A stretch of 64,000 nucleotides of DNA from a virus (IMGVR_UViG_3300037466_003757:54680-118679), one strand, 5' to 3'; positions 2,720 to 48,716 are shown, counted from the first letter of the stretch. Program-made: numbers and translations. Notes: generated by a model not told the origin, from the letters alone.

Positions 2720-2986
2720 ATGACCAAAACGAAACTCGTCATTCGTCTCGTCTTGTTCGGTTTGACCGTCGTCGGCACGGTCATCGGCGTTCTGTTGACG
2801 ATCATGTGGGCCTGTATTCTCGCCTTCGGTCACCGGAATATCGCCGATTCCTTGTTCTTCGCGATCGTGTCGTGCTCCGTGGCGTGGCTGTGCGCGTTGC
2901 GCGCCCTGGATCTGTGGGAGCAGTATCAACACGAACGCACACAGTTCGAACGTGAGAACGAGTACAAACGCGGATATCAACGATAA
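2720..2986 (+). CDS. small membrane protein
   Basis: Internal Met MTKTKLV... of the 2342 ORF; N-terminal part of that ORF is Arg-rich junk. Confidence 0.45.
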   Translation: MTKTKLVIRLVLFGLTVVGTVIGVLLTIMWACILAFGHRNIADSLFFAIVSCSVAWLCALRALDLWEQYQHERTQFERENEYKRGYQR

Positions 2987-3033
2987 AAACGTAGCAATGC
3001 GACAACGACAACGACGAAGACAGGACACAGACA

Positions 3034-3477
3034 ATGCCAGCGATCAACACGTCCATGCACACCGTCGCGTCCAGTTATCTGGATACGGGCGTGACCATGC
3101 TTCCCGTGTACGATGTCAGTATTCTCATTCCGCACGAGGTCGAACCGGGCGATTTGTTCGCGACGATCGGTGGTTACGTCAACAGCGAGGATCCCGTGAG
3201 CGTCACCGTGACGTTCGTACGTAACGATCCGAACGGTCTGTTCCGCGTGAATCTTTCCGGCGGATGGAATACGCTCGGAACGTTATTGACCGATATATTC
3301 CAGTACGCGGGATTTTTCGACGACAAATCCGCTAAGTCTTCCGAGGCGCGTGCCGCGTCGATGATGGTCATGCAGACATCGGTCGAGAACGAAAGTCACG
3401 TTCTGATCAGTCGTGCGGGTCGCCTCGAAATGATCACCAAGATCGAATACGACAACATGACAAGGGCAATGAAATGA
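3034..3477 (+). CDS. hypothetical protein
   Basis: 147-aa ORF preceded by a purine/ACA-rich leader. Confidence 0.5.
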   Translation: MPAINTSMHTVASSYLDTGVTMLPVYDVSILIPHEVEPGDLFATIGGYVNSEDPVSVTVTFVRNDPNGLFRVNLSGGWNTLGTLLTDIFQYAGFFDDKSAKSSEARAASMMVMQTSVENESHVLISRAGRLEMITKIEYDNMTRAMK

Positions 3478-3809
3478 CCGAGCGATTCACGTATCCGTCG
3501 CACACCATTTTCGACGTGACGATCTATCCGCAGAACATCGACTATCTGGGTAATATCGTGACCGATCTCGCTCGTGCGGGCGAACATGCCCAATGGTCGG
3601 TCACGCCCACCGATGCGTCGTCCCGGCAGATCCAGATCCAGTTGCGGGGTACGTACCGCAATCTGCTGGACACGATCACACAGATGTTCGATCATCCCGG
3701 TATGTTCACGGGTGAGGAACCGTTGAAGAGTCACGAGGCGATTCTCGCCGCGAACGCGGTCATGGTGACCGCGCGCCGCGTCGTGACCATTCACGAGGAG
3801 ATCGCATGA
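3474..3809 (+). CDS. hypothetical protein
   Basis: 111 aa; 4-bp overlap suggests translational coupling. Confidence 0.5.
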   Translation: MTERFTYPSHTIFDVTIYPQNIDYLGNIVTDLARAGEHAQWSVTPTDASSRQIQIQLRGTYRNLLDTITQMFDHPGMFTGEEPLKSHEAILAANAVMVTARRVVTIHEEIA

Positions 3810-4027
3810 ACATACGTACTCGAATCCTTCTGCTGAAGGCGTTTTCGTGGGGACTCTGGATCGTTTACTACTTTCTCATGTGCTATTCGGTGACCGAACT
3901 GTTCTTGAACGCGTCGGATTGGGCGACCTGGGTCATCGTGACCGGCATCACCAGCGCAATCGTGTTCGTCGTCGGTTCGTTCGTCTCCGGTGCCATCACC
4001 CATCTCGAGAAAAGCGACAAGAAATGA
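3806..4027 (+). CDS. small membrane protein
   Basis: 73 aa, hydrophobic. Confidence 0.5.
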   Translation: MNIRTRILLLKAFSWGLWIVYYFLMCYSVTELFLNASDWATWVIVTGITSAIVFVVGSFVSGAITHLEKSDKK

Positions 4028-4221
4028 AAGATATGCGGTATTACATCGCCGTTCTCAAGATCTACGGGCTTTTTCTCATGATTCTGAACACGGCGACGTT
4101 CATCGCTTGGGTCACGAACCCGCACGATCACAAGGTGCTTCTGTTCGTCACTCTCGGTCTGGATCTGCTCACGGTCGCCGTGGCGATCATCGACGCGATC
4201 GTGGAAAACGCCCGTGACTAG
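4024..4221 (+). CDS. small membrane protein
   Basis: MKDMRYY... internal start of the 3847 ORF; TM helices. Confidence 0.4.
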   Translation: MKDMRYYIAVLKIYGLFLMILNTATFIAWVTNPHDHKVLLFVTLGLDLLTVAVAIIDAIVENARD

Positions 4222-4863: not shown

Positions 4864-5319
4864 ATGACCGACAAGATTTATCTGACTCCCGAACCGCCAC
4901 GTTTCGGTTCACCGTTACTGCCTCCGCCGATGCCTTCATCGAATGCTCCCGAATCGGAACTTTCGGAGAACGAGCCGGAAAGGCGTCGTCAAGAGCGAAC
5001 ACAGGCGATCTCCGAATTCAATTGGCGCGTACGGATCACCGTCGCCGACGATCGTCATCTTCCGGAGGAAGTGATCCGTATCCTCGGTAGCCGTGATTTC
5101 GAGGGATTGGATTGGACGTTGTCCAGTTCACCGATTTGTTTCGGAATGTTTCAGCTCACAGTGACCGACGAATTCCCGACCGTCAAGCATTTTTTGCGCA
5201 CGTTGACGCTCAAAACGGGCGTGATTCGACACAGTCCGCCGTTGACTATCGCAGAAGCAGATATTGCCGCGACCACGCTGATGCTGACCGCAGAACGCGT
5301 CGATCCGAAGGACAAGTGA
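4864..5319 (+). CDS. hypothetical protein
   Basis: 151-aa ORF with an ACA-rich leader. Confidence 0.5.
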   Translation: MTDKIYLTPEPPRFGSPLLPPPMPSSNAPESELSENEPERRRQERTQAISEFNWRVRITVADDRHLPEEVIRILGSRDFEGLDWTLSSSPICFGMFQLTVTDEFPTVKHFLRTLTLKTGVIRHSPPLTIAEADIAATTLMLTAERVDPKDK

Positions 5320-5320
5320 C

Positions 5321-6205
5321 ATGCAACTCGGTGAAAACTGGCAGTGCGAACCCCAGGATAACGTCACCGCGAGCGACGCACGGCATTTCTACGTATTTGC
5401 TGCCGCGTTGGATCTTCTCGAAGAGAAACCGAACCTTCTCGGGGATCAACGTGTCTACGAAGAATGTATGAAGATCCAGGAACTCGTCTGCGGTCTCACT
5501 CCCGACAGAATCATGCAGACCTGGCTGTCGATCATCAATAATCGTGACATCGAATCGCTGGAACAGATCTTCGTGGACGAGAGCGACGAAGCCATGTACA
5601 TGCGAAAACTGTCGCCGCTCGGCGTACTTTTCGACCATGACATCATGTCTGCGTGCAGTCGGCGTGCGATCAATCGCGAAATGATCAAGCACCGGGAGCG
5701 GAAGGAGATTTTCTCGCGCGAACGTGAAAAAGCGGCGGAGATTGCGCGTAAGTTCGATGAGCGGGAAAACGATTATCCGCTCACTCGTACGACTTCGGAG
5801 GATGATATGTCCGATACCGACGACATCCGCGACAGCGCCGACATTCTCGACGACGGCGACGACATTCAATCCGTCGTTCATCCCGCCACACCGTGGATCC
5901 CACCGGTTATTTCCGACCGGACTCGGAAACTGGTCCGGCAGATCCTGAAGTCGGACACCGGTAAGGGTACGTACCGCGCCAGTCTCACCCTGGACGAGCA
6001 TCGTGACTTGATGGATGCCGCGCGGGAACTGAAGCTCGTTCACGGGCACGTCATCGAGACGATCACGTCCTACGATACTTCGGATCCGAACGCGATGTAC
6101 GAGACCAAGGCGATTGCGACGGCGTCCGGTCTCACCGCGTTGCTGATCTACAAGCACGAGATCGCCAAATTCCGCGGTCACATCAAAACGAACGACGCGA
6201 AATGA
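5321..6205 (+). CDS. hypothetical protein
   Basis: 294-aa ORF. Confidence 0.55.
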   Translation: MQLGENWQCEPQDNVTASDARHFYVFAAALDLLEEKPNLLGDQRVYEECMKIQELVCGLTPDRIMQTWLSIINNRDIESLEQIFVDESDEAMYMRKLSPLGVLFDHDIMSACSRRAINREMIKHRERKEIFSREREKAAEIARKFDERENDYPLTRTTSEDDMSDTDDIRDSADILDDGDDIQSVVHPATPWIPPVISDRTRKLVRQILKSDTGKGTYRASLTLDEHRDLMDAARELKLVHGHVIETITSYDTSDPNAMYETKAIATASGLTALLIYKHEIAKFRGHIKTNDAK

Positions 6206-32705: not shown

Positions 32706-34367
32706 TCAGATACGACCGAGTGCGAAGTCGGCCATCAACTGGGGTGTCGCCGTATCGAAACCGGCGACGTTCAACGAACCCGGATCCTTCGGATCCGCGA
32801 TCGTCCAGTCGGTTGCGGTCATTCCCACAACGATCAATCGTGCATTCGGATTGATCTTGTTGCGGTACATTTCGAGTGCCTTGTGTGGATGAACGTCACC
32901 CGCCCAGTTTTCGCTGTCCGTATAGATCGTGAAAACGTCGATCTTCGTCTTGGTCTCCAACGCCCACCGCATCGGCAACGCGCAGTCGGTTCCACCCGCA
33001 CGTGTACGACCGACGACACTAATGGCGTCCGTCAGTCGCTGATGCGGCGAAATACCCAACGGAGCGATGCCCCAGTCACTGTAATAGCTACGTCGCGACG
33101 ACTTAGTACTCGGAGTCCAGGTGTGACCCGCAAGACCAGACGAGAACGCCGTGATCACGTGCTCCGGTTCGACCTTCGCCGTGACGAGAGCCATGACAGT
33201 TGCCGCGTCACGAGGCGTGATCGACATTTTGGCGATGTTGTCCCAAGTCATCGATCCGGAGACATCGATCGCCAACATGTGCGTCTTGCCGGTGGACTCG
33301 ACCGTATCGAACGATGCGTAGAACGCGGCGTCGAGTGCGTCCACGATCCGTTGAACCGGAGTCCAACGATTCGAGCCCTTCTCGCCGTGACCACGCTCGT
33401 AGACCCTCATCGCGTTGAGAATGGAAAGCGGATGTACGCGCGCCTTCTTCAAACGTTCCGGATCGGTGAGCTGATCGCAGACACGCTGCGTCCATTCGGC
33501 ACCGACCTGCGCAACGAGACCGACGTTCGTCAACGTGGGCAGATTACGCAAGAGCGCAGTCTGTGGCATACCCGATTCGAGCAATGCCTCCCATACGTCC
33601 GGACGCTTCAACGCATCGGTGGGTACCATTTCGCGAACGAGACGATACTCACGAACTATTTGCGCCACCTCGCTGGGCTTCGCCGCACGTGCTTTCTGGA
33701 AACCCTCCACGATACGGATACCGTCGCCCGACCAGTTCGGATCGTAACCCAGTGCCCATCGGAACAAACGACGCTGCTGCTCGTCCTTCGGCTTCGGGTG
33801 ATCGAGCTGGATGATTCGCCGCGGCGTCCAGTCGTTCCGATTGCGATACTTGGTGATTTGATACGCGGTCTTGTTCGTGTCCTCGGTCAGCCACTTCTCG
33901 ATCGCGCGCTTGAACGCCGTACTACCGACACCGCGCATCGCCTTCGAGTAACCCATAAACGTGTACAGCGCCGTAGCGGTACGCGCCACCTGAGGCAGAG
34001 CGGCGAGTGCAGCGCGTCGACCTTCGACATCCGAGGATGCGGCTGCGGCTGCGAGAGCGAACAGAGCGGGTTCCTGCTTCGCCGCGCGACCGCTGACGGA
34101 CACGTCCACGGCTGCGTTGACGAGCTTGATCGGATTCTTCTCTGCGAGTTCGCGAACGATCTTGACGTTCTCGATCGCCAGATCACGGGCCTTCACATAA
34201 TACGTGCCGCCCTCGACTCCGAGAATCAGGAAACGGTTGAGACGCGCGTCCTCATCGACGGTGAATACGTAACCACCGGCGTTGTTCTTGACCTGGGCAG
34301 GATCCACCTTCTCGGTCGCGGGAACCGTGCGTGTGACCGCTTCGGTGAGTGCGTCGAATGTCGCCAT
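32706..34367 (-). CDS. rsr: Ro60/TROVE-domain ribonucleoprotein with C-terminal vWA domain (Rsr-like)
   Basis: TROVE-like N-terminal two-thirds; C-terminal MIDAS motif AIDVSGSMT; 553 aa. Confidence 0.75.
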   Translation of the reverse strand: MATFDALTEAVTRTVPATEKVDPAQVKNNAGGYVFTVDEDARLNRFLILGVEGGTYYVKARDLAIENVKIVRELAEKNPIKLVNAAVDVSVSGRAAKQEPALFALAAAAASSDVEGRRAALAALPQVARTATALYTFMGYSKAMRGVGSTAFKRAIEKWLTEDTNKTAYQITKYRNRNDWTPRRIIQLDHPKPKDEQQRRLFRWALGYDPNWSGDGIRIVEGFQKARAAKPSEVAQIVREYRLVREMVPTDALKRPDVWEALLESGMPQTALLRNLPTLTNVGLVAQVGAEWTQRVCDQLTDPERLKKARVHPLSILNAMRVYERGHGEKGSNRWTPVQRIVDALDAAFYASFDTVESTGKTHMLAIDVSGSMTWDNIAKMSITPRDAATVMALVTAKVEPEHVITAFSSGLAGHTWTPSTKSSRRSYYSDWGIAPLGISPHQRLTDAISVVGRTRAGGTDCALPMRWALETKTKIDVFTIYTDSENWAGDVHPHKALEMYRNKINPNARLIVVGMTATDWTIADPKDPGSLNVAGFDTATPQLMADFALGRI

Positions 34368-34379
34368 GTCGTGTCTTCT

Positions 34380-35330
34380 TTCGTGGATGGAGTGTGAACG
34401 AGTCTGTTGACGAACGGCTGTTTATTCACTGTGGTGGAGTGGGTTCGATAACCGTACATCGGGAGTTCACACCGACATTCCGTTCGAGACGGGCAGTCGG
34501 AAAAGACGAACGAGTCAGGCGTGTCCGGAATTGACGTCCGGGAGTTACCCGAGAACGTATTGGATTCGAACCAATAATACCAGCGATAACCGGAACACAA
34601 AGAGTTCGTTTTATCCCACTGTCCGTTTCAGAATGGGAGACGTAGAAAGTAGACGATATCGAACGAAAACGCATGCCAATCGGGTTTGTGTGCTCCCAAT
34701 AGCGATAACCGACTAACAAATGAGTTCGATATCGACTGCCTCCTACGTCCATAAATCGAACGTTTATCGTGTGATCGGGAGAGCCGAACGAATCGGGCGC
34801 TGCTCGGATCTGGTGTCTGATGCTCTGCCAATTGGAGCTACCGACTTGCGTCGGACGGGACTCGAACCCGTAACCATCGGATTTGATTCGATAACCGAAC
34901 AACAAAGAGTTCGACTCTCCGAATCACACGATAAGGGAGGCGGGACGCGAAAGAGGAGCAACGCCGAACGAAACGGGTGCATTGTCGGGGTTTAGAGCTT
35001 TACCAATTAAGCTACCGCCCCATGAGCGGAGCGGACCGGACTCGAACCGGTATCCCTCGTTTTCTAGACGATAACCGACTTCGCGGGGAGTTCGGCGCTG
35101 CTCGTCTTCAACGTCCCTTATTCAATTGTCAACGTACGTAATAAGGATGGGGATTCGAACGAATCGATGATAACCGATGAATTGTATTAGCAGTACGATA
35201 ACCGGAAATCGGGAGTTCGAATCCCTCTAGCCCTTACCCATCTAGTTCGTTCTAACGCCTTTGCGATCCTGGAGGAGCGTTTTTTGGCGTTTCGATCGAA
35301 CGAGATTTATCGTATCACGCTTCAGTCGAA
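34380..35330. repeat. array of tRNA-like repeat units (CGATAACCG ... GAGTTCGA) and tRNA half-like fragments
   Basis: Six or more units with GATAACCG followed 8-12 nt later by a GAGTTCGA-type T-loop; canonical 5'-half and 3'-half tRNA sequences in non-canonical order. Confidence 0.5.
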
Positions 35331-43940: not shown

Positions 43941-44252
43941 TTATCCCCGGAGTTGCTTGAGCGCGTCGTGACGACCCCCGATGATGGCGACCATCACGTC
44001 GTTCGCGTGCGCGTTGTACTTGAATCCGAGTTGAACCGCGATGTCCAGGTCGTCTTGTTCCACTTTTCCGAGATAGTGGAGACGTGAGACGTGCTGAAGC
44101 TGTCGCATCGCCTTCAGAAACTCCCGGCGATTGACGATGATGTCGTATCCGGTTTCCTGATACGTCTGATAACCGTCACGCGCGTAGTTGATGATGTTCT
44201 GAAGTTCGTTCTGATCGATCTTTGTCGATGTCGATGTCGTTGTCGTCGTCAT
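43941..44252 (-). CDS. hypothetical protein
   Basis: 103 aa, downstream of a family promoter. Confidence 0.5.
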   Translation of the reverse strand: MTTTTTSTSTKIDQNELQNIINYARDGYQTYQETGYDIIVNRREFLKAMRQLQHVSRLHYLGKVEQDDLDIAVQLGFKYNAHANDVMVAIIGGRHDALKQLRG

Positions 44253-44258
44253 ACGTTA

Positions 44259-44287
44259 ATGGTATCACAACTTCAGTGTCGTGTAAA
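44259..44287 (-). promoter_or_regulatory. sigma-A-type promoter TTTACA-N17-TACCAT
   Basis: Conserved family member. Confidence 0.55.
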
Positions 44288-44302
44288 CACTTCTCGACAT
44301 TG

Positions 44303-44374
44303 AGCTCCATGGAGGACTCGAACCCCCGCCACCAGTTTACAAGACTGGCGCACTGCCTGTTGTGCTAATGGAGC
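44303..44374 (-). tRNA. tRNA-Thr(TGT)
   Basis: Cloverleaf; anticodon loop CTTGTAA. Confidence 0.7.
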
Positions 44375-44781
44375 AGGGTCCCCGACCGCGTAGCCTACGG
44401 CCGGGGCGCTTCAATGAGTACGGTATAACGCACGACGATAGCATTTAACTCGGGAGATGAATCTAATACCATGATGTTCTGCCATTGAACTACCGGACCA
44501 TGATAGCGGTCCGGACGGGACTCGAACCCGTACGTATATGGTGTCGTCTCCGTCGGTCGATCCGTCGTGCACCGACAGGTTGCTGAGACTAGAGCAATAA
44601 CCTGAGCCTGATACGGCCCGTCTGCCTCTACCGAGTTGGGCTACCCTCGCATGGAGTGCGAAGGGCAGGATTCGAACCTGCACTGGGACGGGATACGTGT
44701 GAGCTTGAGTTTAATTCTCAGTCTCTGCCCCAACATCGTGGGGCAATCCGGGTGCTCTACGCCCGGAAATCTATGAGTCGA
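44375..44781 (-). ncRNA. cluster of degenerate tRNA-like fragments (T-arms, D-arm-like 5' halves, palindromic GGTCCGGACC)
   Basis: Two good T-arms (ACGGG-TTCGAGT-CCCGT and GCAGG-TTCGAAT-CCTGC) and a GGTCCGG-TA-GTTC-AATGGCA-GAAC 5'-half, but no acceptor pairing in any canonical order. Confidence 0.35.
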
Positions 44782-45591
44782 TTACTCGACTGTTGCGTCC
44801 TTCGCCGCATTGATCGGAGCGAACATATAGTCGAGCAGTGGCTGTGCGACCTGGTAGTCGTTTACCTCTACGTTGTTCGCTTCCTCGCGGGCGAATTTCA
44901 CCGCGTTACGTAGCTTTTCGATCCGTTCGGCAGTCTCGGCGACCGTGTCGTACGGAAGACCACCGGACAAGTTGATCTGCGACCACGTACCCTGAACGAC
45001 GTCCTCGTGAATCAACTGCACCTGAGCCGGATGCTTGTCCGTCGCCGGCGACAATTGGAACGATTTGGGCTCCTTCTTGGTCTTGAACGTCTCGACCTTG
45101 TCGGAAATCCAAACGCCCTTGGCAGCGTCGTACGTCCACGACTGTTCCGGATCGAGAACCGGGAAGTTGGAAATGAACGTAGCGAGATCGGTCAACTGTT
45201 TCTCGAGAAACAGCATGTATGTGACCGGTACGTCCGTCGCCAACGTCTGACCGTCCACGACGATGTCGGCTTTCGCGCCAGCGTTCGCTACCTCGTGGGT
45301 GAAAACAAGGTCGAACAACCGGGTGAGGAGCTTCGTGACCTCGTCCATGACGACCGCGGAACGAACCTGCACGAGCTGCGATTCGTTCGGGAAAACGTCG
45401 CCGTCCTCGGTCTTCGGCTTGTACGTCCGAATCCGACCCTTCCAGAGACCGTCCTTACTGAGGGTCCGGTAGAGTTCGGTCCATCGCGTGGTCGTCTTGT
45501 GCTTGACACCCTTCTCGACCGACACGATCTGATTCAGTTTTGTCAAGGTTTTTCCTGTCTTGTCTGATTTTCGTATCTCATATTCGCCCAT
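44782..45591 (-). CDS. hypothetical protein
   Basis: 269 aa. Confidence 0.55.
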   Translation of the reverse strand: MGEYEIRKSDKTGKTLTKLNQIVSVEKGVKHKTTTRWTELYRTLSKDGLWKGRIRTYKPKTEDGDVFPNESQLVQVRSAVVMDEVTKLLTRLFDLVFTHEVANAGAKADIVVDGQTLATDVPVTYMLFLEKQLTDLATFISNFPVLDPEQSWTYDAAKGVWISDKVETFKTKKEPKSFQLSPATDKHPAQVQLIHEDVVQGTWSQINLSGGLPYDTVAETAERIEKLRNAVKFAREEANNVEVNDYQVAQPLLDYMFAPINAAKDATVE

Positions 45592-45613
45592 GCCCTCAAA
45601 GGGATCGGGTCAG

Positions 45614-45685
45614 AGCTCTCTGCGAGGATCGAACTCGCGACCTATTGCTTACCATGCAATTACGCTACCACTGCGCCAAGAGAGC
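45614..45685 (-). tRNA. tRNA-Thr(GGT)
   Basis: Cloverleaf; anticodon loop ATGGTAA. Confidence 0.7.
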
Positions 45686-45785
45686 ATAGACGTCACAATA
45701 GCAAGATGGATATACCATGGGTGTTATGGTGACGTCAAACGTCGCATTTCTCGGTTGGATAACCAATATTTTTATGGCGACGTAG

Positions 45786-45860
45786 TAATCCCGAGTGGAT
45801 TCGAACCACCAACCTTCGCAGTCTGAGTGCGACGCCTCTGCCAAATTGGGCTACGGGATC
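45786..45860 (-). tRNA. tRNA with Leu anticodon CAG, class-I shape (short variable loop)
   Basis: D-arm GCC-CAATTTGGCAGA-GGC, anticodon loop CTCAGAC, variable AGGTT, A73. Confidence 0.55.
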
Positions 45861-45861
45861 G

Positions 45862-45934
45862 TGTCCACGGTGAGATTCGAACTCACAACAACCGACTTTT
45901 GAGATCGGCGCCTCTGCCGTTGGGCTACGCGGAC
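45862..45934 (-). tRNA. tRNA with Leu anticodon CAA, class-I shape
   Basis: D-arm GCC-CAACGGCAGA-GGC, anticodon loop CTCAAAA, A73. Confidence 0.55.
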
Positions 45935-48426: not shown

Positions 48427-48554
48427 GCAGTGCTCAGTGAACGGATCGTACGCTTCCGAACTTCGGCGATCGAATTACCGGGCGTCCCCGAATGTCTCGA
48501 TTTCCCAGGTGCGAACACACCACCTGTTTCTTCACGTTGTCGCTTGGGAGTCGA

Positions 48555-48644
48555 ACCCAGTCTCCGGTACTACCCGGCGCATTCCCGTTATGCTATACGA
48601 CTATGAAGATAGTACCCCCGGCAGGATTCGAACCCGCCGAGTAG
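48555..48644 (-). pseudogene. tRNA pseudogene fragments (D-arm plus defective anticodon arm, then an isolated T-arm)
   Basis: GCAT-AACGGGA-ATGC D-arm, then a 4-bp stem with a 6-nt loop and no acceptor pairing; separate GCGGG-TTCGAAT-CCTGC T-arm at 48621-48645. Confidence 0.35.
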
Positions 48645-48716
48645 TAGGCCCCCAGGGACTCGAACCCTGTTCTGCTGATTAAGAGTCAGCGGTTTTACCT
48701 GTTATACTAGAGGCCC
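48645..48716 (-). tRNA. tRNA-Lys(CTT)
   Basis: Acceptor with two G-U pairs; anticodon loop CTCTTAA; T-arm CAGGG-TTCGAGT-CCCTG. Confidence 0.55.

What the first reader, a model, noticed from the sequence alone, without database searches (positions are those of the whole stretch)
44375..44781. Zone of tRNA debris with apparently inverted half order and a palindromic acceptor element
Between tRNA-Thr(TGT) and a 269-aa gene there are two excellent T-arms, a D-arm-containing 5' half (GGTCCGG-TA-GTTC-AATGGCA-GAAC) and the palindrome CCGGACC-N8-GGTCCGG. No acceptor stem can close in the canonical order. The only 7-bp acceptor pairing for the 44657 T-arm (CCTTCGC with GCGAAGG) would require a 149-nt molecule beginning inside the upstream CDS. 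The recurring pattern of a 3' half followed by a 5' half here and at 34.8-35.0 kb raises the possibility of circularly permuted or split tRNA genes. Tandem recombination scars are the alternative.
Basis: inference. Interest (0 to 1): 0.7.

Follow-up and report, generated by a model that had tools for sequence, protein, structure and literature searches.

The report
Two tRNA-mimic RNA genes, not debris
The "scrambled tRNA pieces" are two intact, conserved genes for small RNAs that mimic tRNA (the Y-RNA-like YrlA type), and they always sit next to the same uncharacterised protein gene (DUF7873) in many phages and some bacteria.

Summary
No canonical tRNA is present.

This is not debris, and these are not permuted or split tRNA genes. 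The region holds two tandem ~141-nt structured RNAs, here called D-type (44585-44725) and C-type (44430-44570). Both have the topology of YrlA Y-RNA-like tRNA mimics. Where a tRNA has its anticodon loop, each has a long conserved basal stem.

The same pair, in the same order, follows the DUF7873 gene in distant relatives (27-59% protein identity). These include isolated Gordonia, Arthrobacter, Rhodococcus, Pseudanabaena, Ralstonia and Klebsiella phages, and actinobacterial chromosomes. Covariation is strong: 92-97% of cells are paired, against 33-50% in slid controls.

The window also encodes Ro60 with its own array of Y-RNA-like units 10 kb away. However, Gordonia phage Ronaldo carries the DUF7873 cassette and has no Ro60.

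Best reading: these are tRNA-mimic scaffold RNAs of a DUF7873-linked cassette that I found neither described nor annotated. The protein partner and the function are inferred, not shown.

The parts
44782..45591 (-). DUF7873 protein gene (269 aa). It lies directly upstream of the RNA pair and is the conserved partner gene of the cassette.
   Evidence: Pfam PF25283, E 2.8e-91. Homologs are followed by the same RNA pair in phages and bacteria.
44747..44767 (-). Hairpin H1, TCCGGG-CGTAGAGCA-CCCGGA, just after the stop codon. The loop contains TAGAGC.
   Evidence: Read. The same hairpin, CCCGGG-ACTAGAGCC-CCCGGG, is present in L022, L023 and L024.
44726..44745 (-). Hairpin H2, TGCCCCA-CGATGT-TGGGGCA.
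   Evidence: RNAfold. A hairpin of different sequence sits at the same position in L022, L023 and L024.
44585..44725 (-). D-type tRNA-mimic RNA. Basal stem GAGACTGAG/CTCTAGTCTC; closing stem CCCGTC/GACGGG; T-arm 44665-44681; acceptor-like hairpin 44644-44664; D-arm 44624-44641.
   Evidence: Single-sequence MFE forms all arms, z = -3.25. Rfam YrlA partial hit, 23 bits. Own model R2 scores 154.5 bits here (this sequence is a training member) and 44-114 bits in non-training relatives. Covariation.
44430..44570 (-). C-type tRNA-mimic RNA. Outer stem GCACGACG/CGTCGTGC; invariant 5' block ATCGACCGAC (44552-44561); T-arm 44515-44531; acceptor-like hairpin CCGGACC-N8-GGTCCGG (44493-44514); D-arm 44476-44490; 3' block CGAGTTAAA (44444-44452).
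   Evidence: Rfam YrlA full-length hit (model positions 1-114), 38 bits, E 1e-6. Own model R1 scores 148.6 bits here (training member) and 44-96 bits in most non-training relatives, down to 35-36 in L004 and L238. Covariation: 23 of 31 pairs have double changes and 28 of 31 on 16 sequences.
44380..44406 (-). Terminal GC-rich hairpin H3, CCCCGGCCG-...-CGGTCGGGG, just before tRNA-Thr(tgt).
   Evidence: Read. An equivalent hairpin is present in L022, L023, L024, GodonK, Mimi and the bacterial locus L239; the first five share a loop containing GG(A/C)TATG, and L239's loop differs.
32706..34367 (-). Ro60 ortholog (context). It is a possible second protein partner, 10 kb downstream on the same strand.
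   Evidence: Pfam TROVE plus vWA_Ro60, E 1e-54. PHROG 850, RNA-binding protein.
34440..35250 (-). Array of six Y-RNA-like units directly upstream of Ro60 (context). Two units carry full T/acceptor-hairpin/D domains (34967-35081 and 34819-34878).
   Evidence: Rfam YrlA, 34.9 and 42.4 bits. The GGTTATCG motif occurs six times here. Sequence read.

Best explanation
The interval holds two adjacent genes for ~141-nt structured non-coding RNAs. Each folds into a tRNA-like L-shaped domain (T-arm, closed 7-bp acceptor-like hairpin, D-arm). The 5' and 3' ends of each RNA emerge where a tRNA has its anticodon loop, and they pair into a long basal stem that carries invariant internal-loop sequences. This is the architecture of YrlA, the Y-RNA-like tRNA mimics.

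The two RNAs (D-type, then C-type) form a conserved cassette with the upstream DUF7873 gene.

Proposed working (inferred, not shown):

1. The RNAs are transcribed with DUF7873 and the tRNA array.
2. They are cut out by tRNA-processing enzymes.
3. They then act in trans as protein scaffolds. The basal-stem motifs would bind a dedicated protein, most likely DUF7873 and, in this phage, possibly also Ro60. The tRNA-like elbow would recruit a tRNA-recognising factor.

Because both acceptor-like stems are 7 bp, RNase P cleavage in the acceptor-hairpin loop followed by CCA addition is plausible. This has been shown for M. smegmatis YrlA.
For: Shown here:

- Rfam YrlA is the only family that matches. 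The C-type match is full length.
- A mycobacteriophage Cali match just upstream of Ro60 scores 36 bits. Chen 2014 reported YrlA in this kind of phage, so sub-threshold scores are normal for phage YrlAs.
- Both modules show A at tRNA position 15 and U at position 48, consistent with the Levitt pair, by direct reading.
- The same pair, in the same order, occurs between DUF7873 and the next tRNA in L022, L023, L024, L218 and GodonK.
- Covariation on MAFFT alignments: C-type 94.5% of cells paired, 23/31 pairs with compensatory double changes, 0/500 shuffles as high, slid controls 35-49%. D-type 96.7% paired, 9/25 pairs, slid controls 33-50%.
- On 16 and 18 sequences aligned to the models: 28/31 and 21/25 pairs with double changes.
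- Model matches directly after DUF7873 in 18 of 20 IMG/VR loci and in phages Mimi, NiceHouse, Pam2, RHph_Y65, Ronaldo, LPKP23 and phiRSL1. They also occur in Thermomonosporaceae and Nocardia chromosomes.
- An RNA-first search recovered only loci with DUF7873 upstream.
- In L006 the pair lies on the opposite strand to DUF7873, so there it cannot be that gene's 3' UTR.

From the literature: YrlA topology, RNase P cleavage and CCA addition, and the unknown effector (PMC4201824; 10.1101/312249).
Against: - No expression, processing or binding data exist for this phage.
- Scores are below the Rfam gathering threshold (38 and 23 bits against 69).
- The D-type lacks the GNCGAA(N0-1)G motif. The C-type has a two-mismatch variant, AUCGACCG.
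- The pair lies 10.4 kb from Ro60, outside the 4-kb criterion of Chen 2014.
- The single-sequence fold of the C-type is not better than shuffles (z = -1.46), and its MFE does not form the T-arm.
- The DUF7873 model has no fold or family match that would indicate RNA binding. The protein-RNA link rests on gene neighbourhood alone.
- The model-fitted alignments lean towards the modelled structure.
- Hits in the most distant loci cover only the T/acceptor-hairpin/D core, which tandem tRNAs can imitate. I checked phiRSL1 and LPKP23 by eye.
Confidence: 0.8

Rival explanations
1. They are classical Ro60-dependent Y RNAs (YrlA proper). Ro60 is the only partner, supplied by the phage or the host. The DUF7873 neighbourhood is conserved gene order without functional meaning.
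For: - The topology is YrlA, and Rfam YrlA is the only match.
- The window and L022 both encode Ro60 on the same strand.
- The cyanophage Pam2 C-type has an exact GUCGAAG at the position of the proposed Rsr-binding motif.
- Sixama has a YrlA-like RNA inside its tRNA array, 1.3 kb from Ro60.
Against: - The complete genome of Gordonia phage Ronaldo carries DUF7873 plus both RNAs and has no Ro60.
- The host-genus lists of DUF7873 phages and Ro60 phages barely overlap.
- Bacterial loci show the cassette alone among unrelated genes.
- The Ro60-adjacent units in the same window use a different stem motif (NCGAACTC...GGTTATCG), which is absent from the C and D types.
- Host-encoded Rsr was not examined.
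Confidence: 0.12
2. They are cis-acting elements of the polycistronic transcript. tRNA-like 'punctuation' would recruit RNase P or RNase Z to release and stabilise the DUF7873 mRNA 3' end and the downstream tRNAs. They would have no trans function.
For: - No promoter-like or terminator-like site lies inside 44375-44781.
- The position is always right after the DUF7873 stop codon.
- The 7-bp acceptor-like stems suit RNase P.
- Conserved hairpins H1-H3 flank the pair.
Against: - The invariant basal-stem and internal-loop sequences, and the covarying ~25-bp stems, are unnecessary for RNase P punctuation.
- Two different conserved module types are always kept.
- In bacterial chromosomes no tRNA follows the pair.
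- In L006 the pair is on the opposite strand, 1.2 kb from DUF7873.
Confidence: 0.06
3. They are circularly permuted or split tRNA genes whose halves are joined into a functional, chargeable tRNA.
For: The 3' half precedes the 5' half, and the acceptor strands are complementary.
Against: - I saw no anticodon loop, no anticodon and no bulge-helix-bulge motif when reading the sequence; no dedicated scan was run.
- The ends continue into long helices that are conserved, and that covary in their outer and inner stems.
- The D-type 3' end abuts the C-type 5' end.
- Permuted tRNA maturation needs the archaeal/eukaryal splicing endonuclease (established knowledge; not searched for here).
- ARAGORN, which detects permuted tmRNA, finds nothing. 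No tmRNA family is hit at E up to 10.
Confidence: 0.01
4. They are tRNA debris: recombination or deletion scars of tandem duplicated tRNAs.
For: The region lies inside a 42-tRNA array that has other orphan T-arms. The YrlA model also hits junctions of adjacent true tRNAs.
Against: Both modules are conserved in position, order and architecture across hosts of several phyla. They show compensatory changes in every helix except the D-arm of the six-sequence D-type alignment, which does not vary there. No relative has intact tRNAs at the site.
Confidence: 0.01

Closest known systems
YrlA, Y-RNA-like tRNA mimics (Rfam RF02553; Chen et al. 2014, PMC4201824; Wang et al. 2018, 10.1101/312249, PDB 6cu1)
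   Same: - Same order: T stem-loop, closed acceptor-like stem-loop, D stem-loop.
- The RNA ends pair in place of the anticodon arm.
- tRNA-type T-loop and D-loop residues are present, and positions 15 and 48 are A and U.
- The acceptor-like stem is 7 bp, as in M. smegmatis YrlA.
- YrlA also occurs in actinobacteriophages.
   Different: - The gene linked to these RNAs is DUF7873, not Ro60, and the cassette exists in a phage without Ro60.
- There are always two distinct module types in tandem.
- The basal-stem motifs differ: AUCGAC(C/U)GA...UUAAA and GAGAYUGAG...UAUCGCUCUAG, instead of GNCGAA(N0-1)G.
- Scores are below the Rfam threshold.
Ro60-adjacent Y RNA arrays (D. radiodurans Yrn1/Yrn2, Salmonella YrlA/YrlB, mycobacteriophage YrlA)
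   Same: The window has such an array at 34.4-35.2 kb, directly upstream of Ro60. It mixes units that carry tRNA-like domains with plain hairpin units, as in the YrlA/YrlB pairs.
   Different: The element under study lies 10 kb away and lacks that array's NCGAACTC...GGTTATCG / CGTTCG stem motif.
Circularly permuted tRNA genes of Cyanidioschyzon merolae, and split tRNAs of Nanoarchaeum (from my own knowledge)
   Same: The 3' half is encoded upstream of the 5' half.
   Different: Those genes produce real tRNAs with an anticodon, by way of bulge-helix-bulge splicing. Here there is no anticodon loop and none can be formed.
Two-piece (permuted) tmRNA; viral tRNA-like structures such as the TYMV TLS; mascRNA
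   Same: All are tRNA mimicry by a non-tRNA.
   Different: There is no tag reading frame, no free CCA end is encoded, and no Rfam or ARAGORN match to these families was found.

Membership tests
YrlA (Y RNA-like; Chen 2014 / Rfam RF02553) | T-like stem-loop with the tRNA T-loop consensus | tested here: met
   ACGGG-TTCGAGT-CCCGT and GCAGG-TTCGAAT-CCTGC. The stems covary and are 100% paired in the six-sequence alignments.
YrlA (Y RNA-like; Chen 2014 / Rfam RF02553) | [quoted passage not shown] | tested here: met
   Both modules have 7-bp hairpins. In the C-type, 6 of 7 acceptor-hairpin pairs show compensatory changes and 100% of cells are paired. In the D-type, 3 of 8 pairs do, rising to 7 of 8 on 18 sequences.
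YrlA (Y RNA-like; Chen 2014 / Rfam RF02553) | D-like stem-loop with GG in the loop, a preceding U8-A9 equivalent, and a 15:48 Levitt pair | tested here: met
   TA-GTTC-AATGGCA-GAAC and TA-GCCC-AACTCGGTAGA-GGC. Position 15 is A and a U precedes each T-stem (direct reading).
YrlA (Y RNA-like; Chen 2014 / Rfam RF02553) | The 5' and 3' ends pair into a stem that replaces the anticodon arm | tested here: met
   Outer and inner basal stems covary. In the C-type, helices 1 and 3 have 6/7 and 5/5 pairs with double changes. The D-type basal stem is supported and by the MFE fold.
YrlA (Y RNA-like; Chen 2014 / Rfam RF02553) | GNCGAA(N0-1)G motif near the 5' end (the proposed Rsr/Ro60 site) | tested here: inconclusive
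   The C-type has an invariant AUCGACCG (two mismatches). Its cyanophage homolog has an exact GUCGAAG. The D-type has no such motif.
YrlA (Y RNA-like; Chen 2014 / Rfam RF02553) | Encoded within 4 kb of a Ro60 ortholog, on the same strand | tested here: not met
   Same strand, but 10.4 kb away. Homologous pairs exist in Ro60-less phage Ronaldo.
YrlA (Y RNA-like; Chen 2014 / Rfam RF02553) | Score at or above the Rfam gathering threshold (69 bits) | tested here: not met
   38 and 23 bits. The Ro60-adjacent match in mycobacteriophage Cali also scores only 36 bits, so the threshold excludes accepted phage members.
YrlA (Y RNA-like; Chen 2014 / Rfam RF02553) | Bound by Ro60/Rsr in vivo | not testable with these tools
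   Needs immunoprecipitation or EMSA.
Circularly permuted / split tRNA genes | The halves can be joined to give a complete cloverleaf with a 7-nt anticodon loop (bulge-helix-bulge at the junction) | tested here: not met
   The module ends continue as long conserved helices, whose outer and inner stems covary, with no loop. The modules abut each other. This rests on reading the sequence; no dedicated bulge-helix-bulge scan was run.
tRNA pseudogenes / recombination scars | No selective conservation; relatives carry intact tRNAs or nothing at the site | tested here: not met
   The same two modules are present at the syntenic site in all relatives examined, with compensatory substitutions.
tmRNA (including permuted two-piece forms) | tRNA-Ala-like acceptor plus a tag-peptide reading frame; detected by ARAGORN or Rfam tmRNA models | tested here: not met
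   ARAGORN finds no tmRNA in the window. No tmRNA family is hit at E up to 10 in 44200-44900.

The most novel reading that the evidence does not exclude
DUF7873 and the two tRNA-mimic RNAs constitute an undescribed, Ro60-independent ribonucleoprotein cassette. It is shared by phages of Actinobacteria, Cyanobacteria and Proteobacteria and by actinobacterial chromosomes. DUF7873 would be a new dedicated partner of YrlA-type RNAs. It might even be the long-sought factor that reads the conserved tRNA-like elbow or the basal-stem motifs. For a phage this would be a portable module that acts on tRNA/RNA metabolism or on tRNA-targeting host defences.
Probability: 0.35. Interest if true: 0.8.

Novelty: new variant of a known kind. 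Interest (0 to 1): 0.62.

Why it matters
- YrlA-type tRNA mimics have so far been defined by their adjacency to Ro60, and the factor that recognises their tRNA-like domain is unknown. Here the same RNA architecture appears as a fixed tandem pair tied to a different, wholly uncharacterised protein family. That family has 3,486 homologs at E <= 1e-40 in the protein search.
- At least one complete phage genome has the cassette and lacks Ro60.
- This gives a concrete, testable candidate partner in culturable phages (GodonK, Ronaldo, Mimi, NiceHouse).
- It explains recurrent unannotated gaps and doubtful annotations in GenBank phage records: small ORFs drawn over the RNAs, and an annotated 'tRNA-Stop(tta)'.
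- For genome annotation it is a warning that orphan T-arms in phage tRNA arrays need not be debris.

Tried and rejected
- Megablast of 44200-45700 against phage genomes found no match.
- An exact-motif scan of IMG/VR for the C-type core found no match.
- The looser motif ATCGACCGAC-N(15-40)-GGTTCGANTCC gave 3 hits in IMG/VR, at least 120 in metagenomes and 84 in genomes. All but L027/L028 and L218 were chance or ordinary tRNA neighbourhoods: they failed the acceptor-hairpin/D-arm filter and model R1. The metagenome loci were only screened with the Python filter, not with R1.
- Single-sequence folding of the C-type and of the two 35-kb units was not significant (z = -1.5, -0.6 and -1.0). Only the D-type was (z = -3.25).
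- The promoter/terminator scan found nothing inside the interval.
- DUF7873 function could not be assigned:
  - PDB sequence search, 0 hits.
  - PHROGs, PADLOC and NCBIfam, 0 families.
  - Foldseek against PDB, nothing at E <= 1e-3.
  - No paper mentions DUF7873.
- Considered and rejected: canonical tRNA with an intron (neither tRNA tool supports it), permuted tmRNA, and a tandem-tRNA junction artefact of the YrlA model. That artefact is real elsewhere in the window, at 45827-45894, 50052-50116 and 50354-50412, but there are no flanking tRNAs here.

Full report
**1.

The window is a phage-like genome. Its source contig is 172,958 bp. It carries 42 tRNA genes on the minus strand.

Between tRNA-Thr(tgt) at 44302-44374 and a 269-aa ORF at 44782-45591, neither ARAGORN nor the Rfam tRNA model finds a tRNA. 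Read on the minus strand, the interval nevertheless contains two units:

- Unit 1 (44476-44531): T-arm ACGGG-TTCGAGT-CCCGT, then CCGGACC-GCTATCAT-GGTCCGG, then TA-GTTC-AATGGCA-GAAC.
- Unit 2, upstream (44624-44681): T-arm GCAGG-TTCGAAT-CCTGC, then CCTTCGC-ACTCCAT-GCGAGGG (7 bp with one bulged U), then TA-GCCC...GGC.

There are therefore two complete units in the order T-arm, closed acceptor-like hairpin (AS below), D-arm. The T-loop motif GGTTCGANTCC is expected 0.44 times per window by chance.

**2. What the units resemble**

A permissive Rfam scan of 44200-44900 returns one relevant family besides the tRNA-Thr: YrlA, the Y-RNA-like tRNA mimic (RF02553).

- The match at 44448-44553 is full length (38 bits, E 1e-6).
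- The match at 44624-44682 is partial (23 bits).

Both are below the 69-bit gathering score. Two calibrations matter here.

- The YrlA model also gives 25-33-bit partial hits at junctions of adjacent true tRNAs in this window. Chen et al. described this artefact themselves (PMC4201824). Partial hits alone therefore prove nothing.
- A mycobacteriophage Cali match just upstream of Ro60 scores only 36 bits, and Chen et al. reported YrlA in this kind of phage. A Sixama element scores 47 bits. Phage members are therefore normally sub-threshold.

The published definition of YrlA is a T, AS and D stem-loop in exactly this order, with the RNA ends paired where a tRNA has its anticodon arm.

**3. Anatomy**

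The whole intergenic region is filled with structure.

- Two hairpins follow the stop codon: H1 (44747-44767) and H2 (44726-44745).
- The D-type RNA spans 44585-44725. Its basal stem is GAGACUGAG/CUCUAGUCUC, with further short stems and then CCCGUC/GACGGG closing the three-armed tRNA-like core. The single-sequence MFE forms all of this, with z = -3.25.
- The C-type RNA spans 44430-44570. Its outer stem is GCACGACG/CGUCGUGC. An internal region carries AUCGACCGAC on the 5' side and CGAGUUAAA on the 3' side, followed by an inner stem and the core.
- A terminal GC hairpin, H3, spans 44380-44406.

The single-sequence fold of the C-type is not significant (z = -1.46) and misses the T-arm. Its case rests on comparison with relatives, not on thermodynamics. 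In both units tRNA position 15 is A and a U precedes the T-stem, which fits the Levitt pair (direct reading).

**4. Comparative evidence**

No close DNA relative exists in the phage collection. The nearest DUF7873 proteins are 57-59% identical.

Their contigs L022, L023 and L024 are syntenic. L022 even keeps the order DUF7873 ... metallophosphatase - Ro60. In each contig the gap between DUF7873 and the next tRNA-Thr contains the same two modules in the same order, plus the flanking hairpins. The same is true of two further loci:

- a Micromonospora assembly contig with a phage-like array of 36 tRNAs (L218);
- the isolated Gordonia phage GodonK. There a small minus-strand 'hypothetical protein' is annotated over the C-type RNA.

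On plain MAFFT alignments of six lineages, against the RNAalifold consensus structure:

| Module | Cells paired | Pairs with compensatory double changes | Shuffles reaching this (of 500) | Slid-partner controls, cells paired |
|---|---|---|---|---|
| C-type | 94.5% | 23 of 31 | 0 | 35-49% |
| D-type | 96.7% | 9 of 25 | 1 | 33-50% |

I built covariance models R1 (C-type) and R2 (D-type) and used them to collect 16 and 18 diverse members. On those sets, 28/31 and 21/25 pairs carry double changes. These alignments are fitted to the models and lean towards the modelled structure.

Decay scars would not behave like this.

**5. The conserved neighbour is DUF7873, not Ro60**

R1 and R2 find matches directly downstream of the DUF7873 gene in 18 of 20 IMG/VR loci that were retrieved by the protein alone.

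- The exceptions are L013 (no match) and L015 (the contig ends).
- In L006 the pair lies on the opposite strand, 1.2 kb away.

Matches also occur after DUF7873 in these phages:

| Phage | D-type (bits) | C-type (bits) |
|---|---|---|
| Arthrobacter phage Mimi | 114 | 78 |
| Rhodococcus phage NiceHouse | 101 | 71 |
| Cyanophage Pam2 | 47 | 44 |
| Rhizobium phage RHph_Y65 | 18 (core only) | 35 |
| Gordonia phage Ronaldo | 62 | 62 |

- Two T/AS/D cores follow the DUF7873 homologs of Klebsiella jumbo phage LPKP23 and Ralstonia phage phiRSL1. In LPKP23 an annotated 'tRNA-Stop(tta)' lies in the same gap and overlaps the second core. I checked both phages by eye.
- The Vibrio phage hit is weak (16 bits).
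- In ordinary chromosomal contexts of a Thermomonosporaceae genome and a Nocardia genome, DUF7873 is again followed by the D and C types, at 102/96 bits and 26/66 bits.
- In the reverse direction, an RNA-motif search of three collections recovered genuine full-length C-types only at loci that have DUF7873 immediately upstream.

**6. Relation to Ro60**

The window does encode a Ro60 ortholog at 32706-34367 (Pfam E 1e-54). Directly upstream of it lies an array of six units that share NCGAACUC...GGUUAUCG on the 5' side and CGUUCG on the 3' side.

- Two of these units carry full T/AS/D domains.
- L022 has the equivalent array, with CGAGC/GCUCG in place of CGAAC/GUUCG. That is a compensatory change in the putative Ro60-binding helix.

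The C and D pair is different in three ways.

- It lies 10.4 kb from Ro60.
- It lacks that stem motif.
- It has homologs in the complete genome of phage Ronaldo, which has no Ro60 by annotation or by tblastn.

The host-genus lists also barely overlap. DUF7873 phages are mostly from Vibrio, Gordonia, Rhizobium, Klebsiella, Serratia and Arthrobacter. Ro60 phages are mostly from Mycobacterium, Streptomyces, Gordonia and Microbacterium.

One link remains. The invariant C-type block AUCGACCG sits where YrlA has GNCGAA(N0-1)G, and the cyanophage homolog reads exactly GUCGAAG. The C-type is therefore probably a true evolutionary relative of YrlA. Binding by a host or phage Ro60 cannot be excluded.

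**7. DUF7873 itself**

The AlphaFold model is confident (pLDDT 82). It shows long helices packed on a beta-sheet. Nothing informative matches it:

- PDB by sequence;
- PHROGs, PADLOC and NCBIfam;
- Foldseek against PDB;

No paper in the searchable library mentions the family. The protein-RNA partnership is inferred from neighbourhood alone.

**8. How it most likely works**

Shown:

- The two RNAs are conserved.
- They have tRNA-like cores and covarying basal stems.
- They are linked to DUF7873.
- There is no internal promoter or terminator consensus.

Inferred from the YrlA literature:

- The cores fold into the tRNA L-shape.
- They are recognised by tRNA enzymes such as TruB and Dus.
- With 7-bp AS stems, they may be cleaved by RNase P in the AS loop and receive CCA.
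- The basal stems act as a protein platform, and the elbow recruits a second factor.

My commitment is that these are trans-acting scaffold RNAs whose dedicated partner is DUF7873. Their effect on phage RNA or tRNA metabolism is unknown. A purely cis role, as processing punctuation, is less likely for three reasons: bacterial copies have no downstream tRNAs, L006 is on the opposite strand, and the invariant stem motifs exceed what RNase P needs.

**9. Verdict**

- The finding is real.
- The permuted or split tRNA gene reading and the debris reading are both rejected.
- The element belongs structurally with YrlA but fails two membership criteria, Ro60 adjacency and the Rfam threshold. It defines a DUF7873-linked tandem variant that I could not find described.

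Limits of this work:

- No expression or binding data exist.
- The distant hits cover the core only.
- Linkage was surveyed on about 45 DUF7873 loci, not on all ~3,500.
- Absence from the literature was tested only in the open-access library.

Noticed in passing
window 34440-35250 (minus strand), upstream of Ro60 at 32706-34367: Six tandem Y-RNA-like units, each with 5' NCGAACTC..GGTTATCG and 3' CGTTCG. Two carry full T/acceptor-hairpin/D domains, one carries a lone T-arm (~34560-34575), and the rest are plain hairpins resembling YrlB. The array in relative L022 (17260-17810) has CGAGC/GCTCG instead of CGAAC/GTTCG, a compensatory change in the putative Ro60-binding helix.
   Followed up: partly
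window 49580-49720 (minus strand): Three consecutive T-arm-like hairpins (GGTTCGATTCC, GGTTCGACTCC, GGTTCGATTCC), bracketed by GATCGAGAT...CGATCTTG. They lie outside any called tRNA and have no Rfam match. Another lone T-arm sits at about 49911.
   Followed up: no
window 48540-48640 and 49330-49368 (minus strand): A tRNA-Lys-like 5' half (GCCTCCGTAGCTGAGATGG...CTGACTCTT) is followed by a 201-aa ORF (48707-49312). Next comes an intact tRNA-Lys(ctt). After that come a lone T-arm with an acceptor 3' strand that could pair with that 5' half, and an odd tRNA-like sequence with a 6-nt 'anticodon' loop. This looks like an interrupted tRNA or an insertion.
   Followed up: no
window, whole tRNA array 29808-53008: No tRNA-Ser is called among the 42 tRNAs. 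Several tRNAs are over-long: Ile-tat 94 nt, Cys 89, Glu-ttc 88, Asn 83 and Tyr 83. One call has a 4-base anticodon (gtac, 51159-51234).
   Followed up: no
window 45827-45894, 50052-50116, 50354-50412: The Rfam YrlA model gives 25-33-bit partial hits across junctions of adjacent genuine tRNAs. These are false positives of the kind Chen et al. warned about, and a useful negative control.
   Followed up: yes
L234 (GodonK) 4018-4146; L247 (Ronaldo) 2232-2345 and 2492-2701; L245 (Klebsiella phage LPKP23) 2330-2413: GenBank annotations drawn in or over the RNA gap: small 'hypothetical protein' ORFs in GodonK (gene 151, overlapping the C-type) and Ronaldo (gp125, overlapping the D/C pair; gp124, in the gap upstream of it), and a 'tRNA-Stop(tta)' in LPKP23. 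They are probably annotation artefacts.
   Followed up: partly
L233 (Gordonia phage Sixama) 5910-6008: A full-length YrlA-like RNA (46.8 bits) lies inside the tRNA array, 1.3 kb downstream of Ro60, between tRNA-Gln and tRNA-Ile. It is unannotated. A tmRNA lies at 5004-5425.
   Followed up: partly
L022 19585-20774; L236 (NiceHouse) 2874-3729: A Band-7 protein gene, and in L022 an RlaP-family nucleotidyltransferase gene, follow Ro60. In NiceHouse a Band-7 gene follows the DUF7873 cassette. This may be a wider RNA-repair or quality-control neighbourhood.
   Followed up: no
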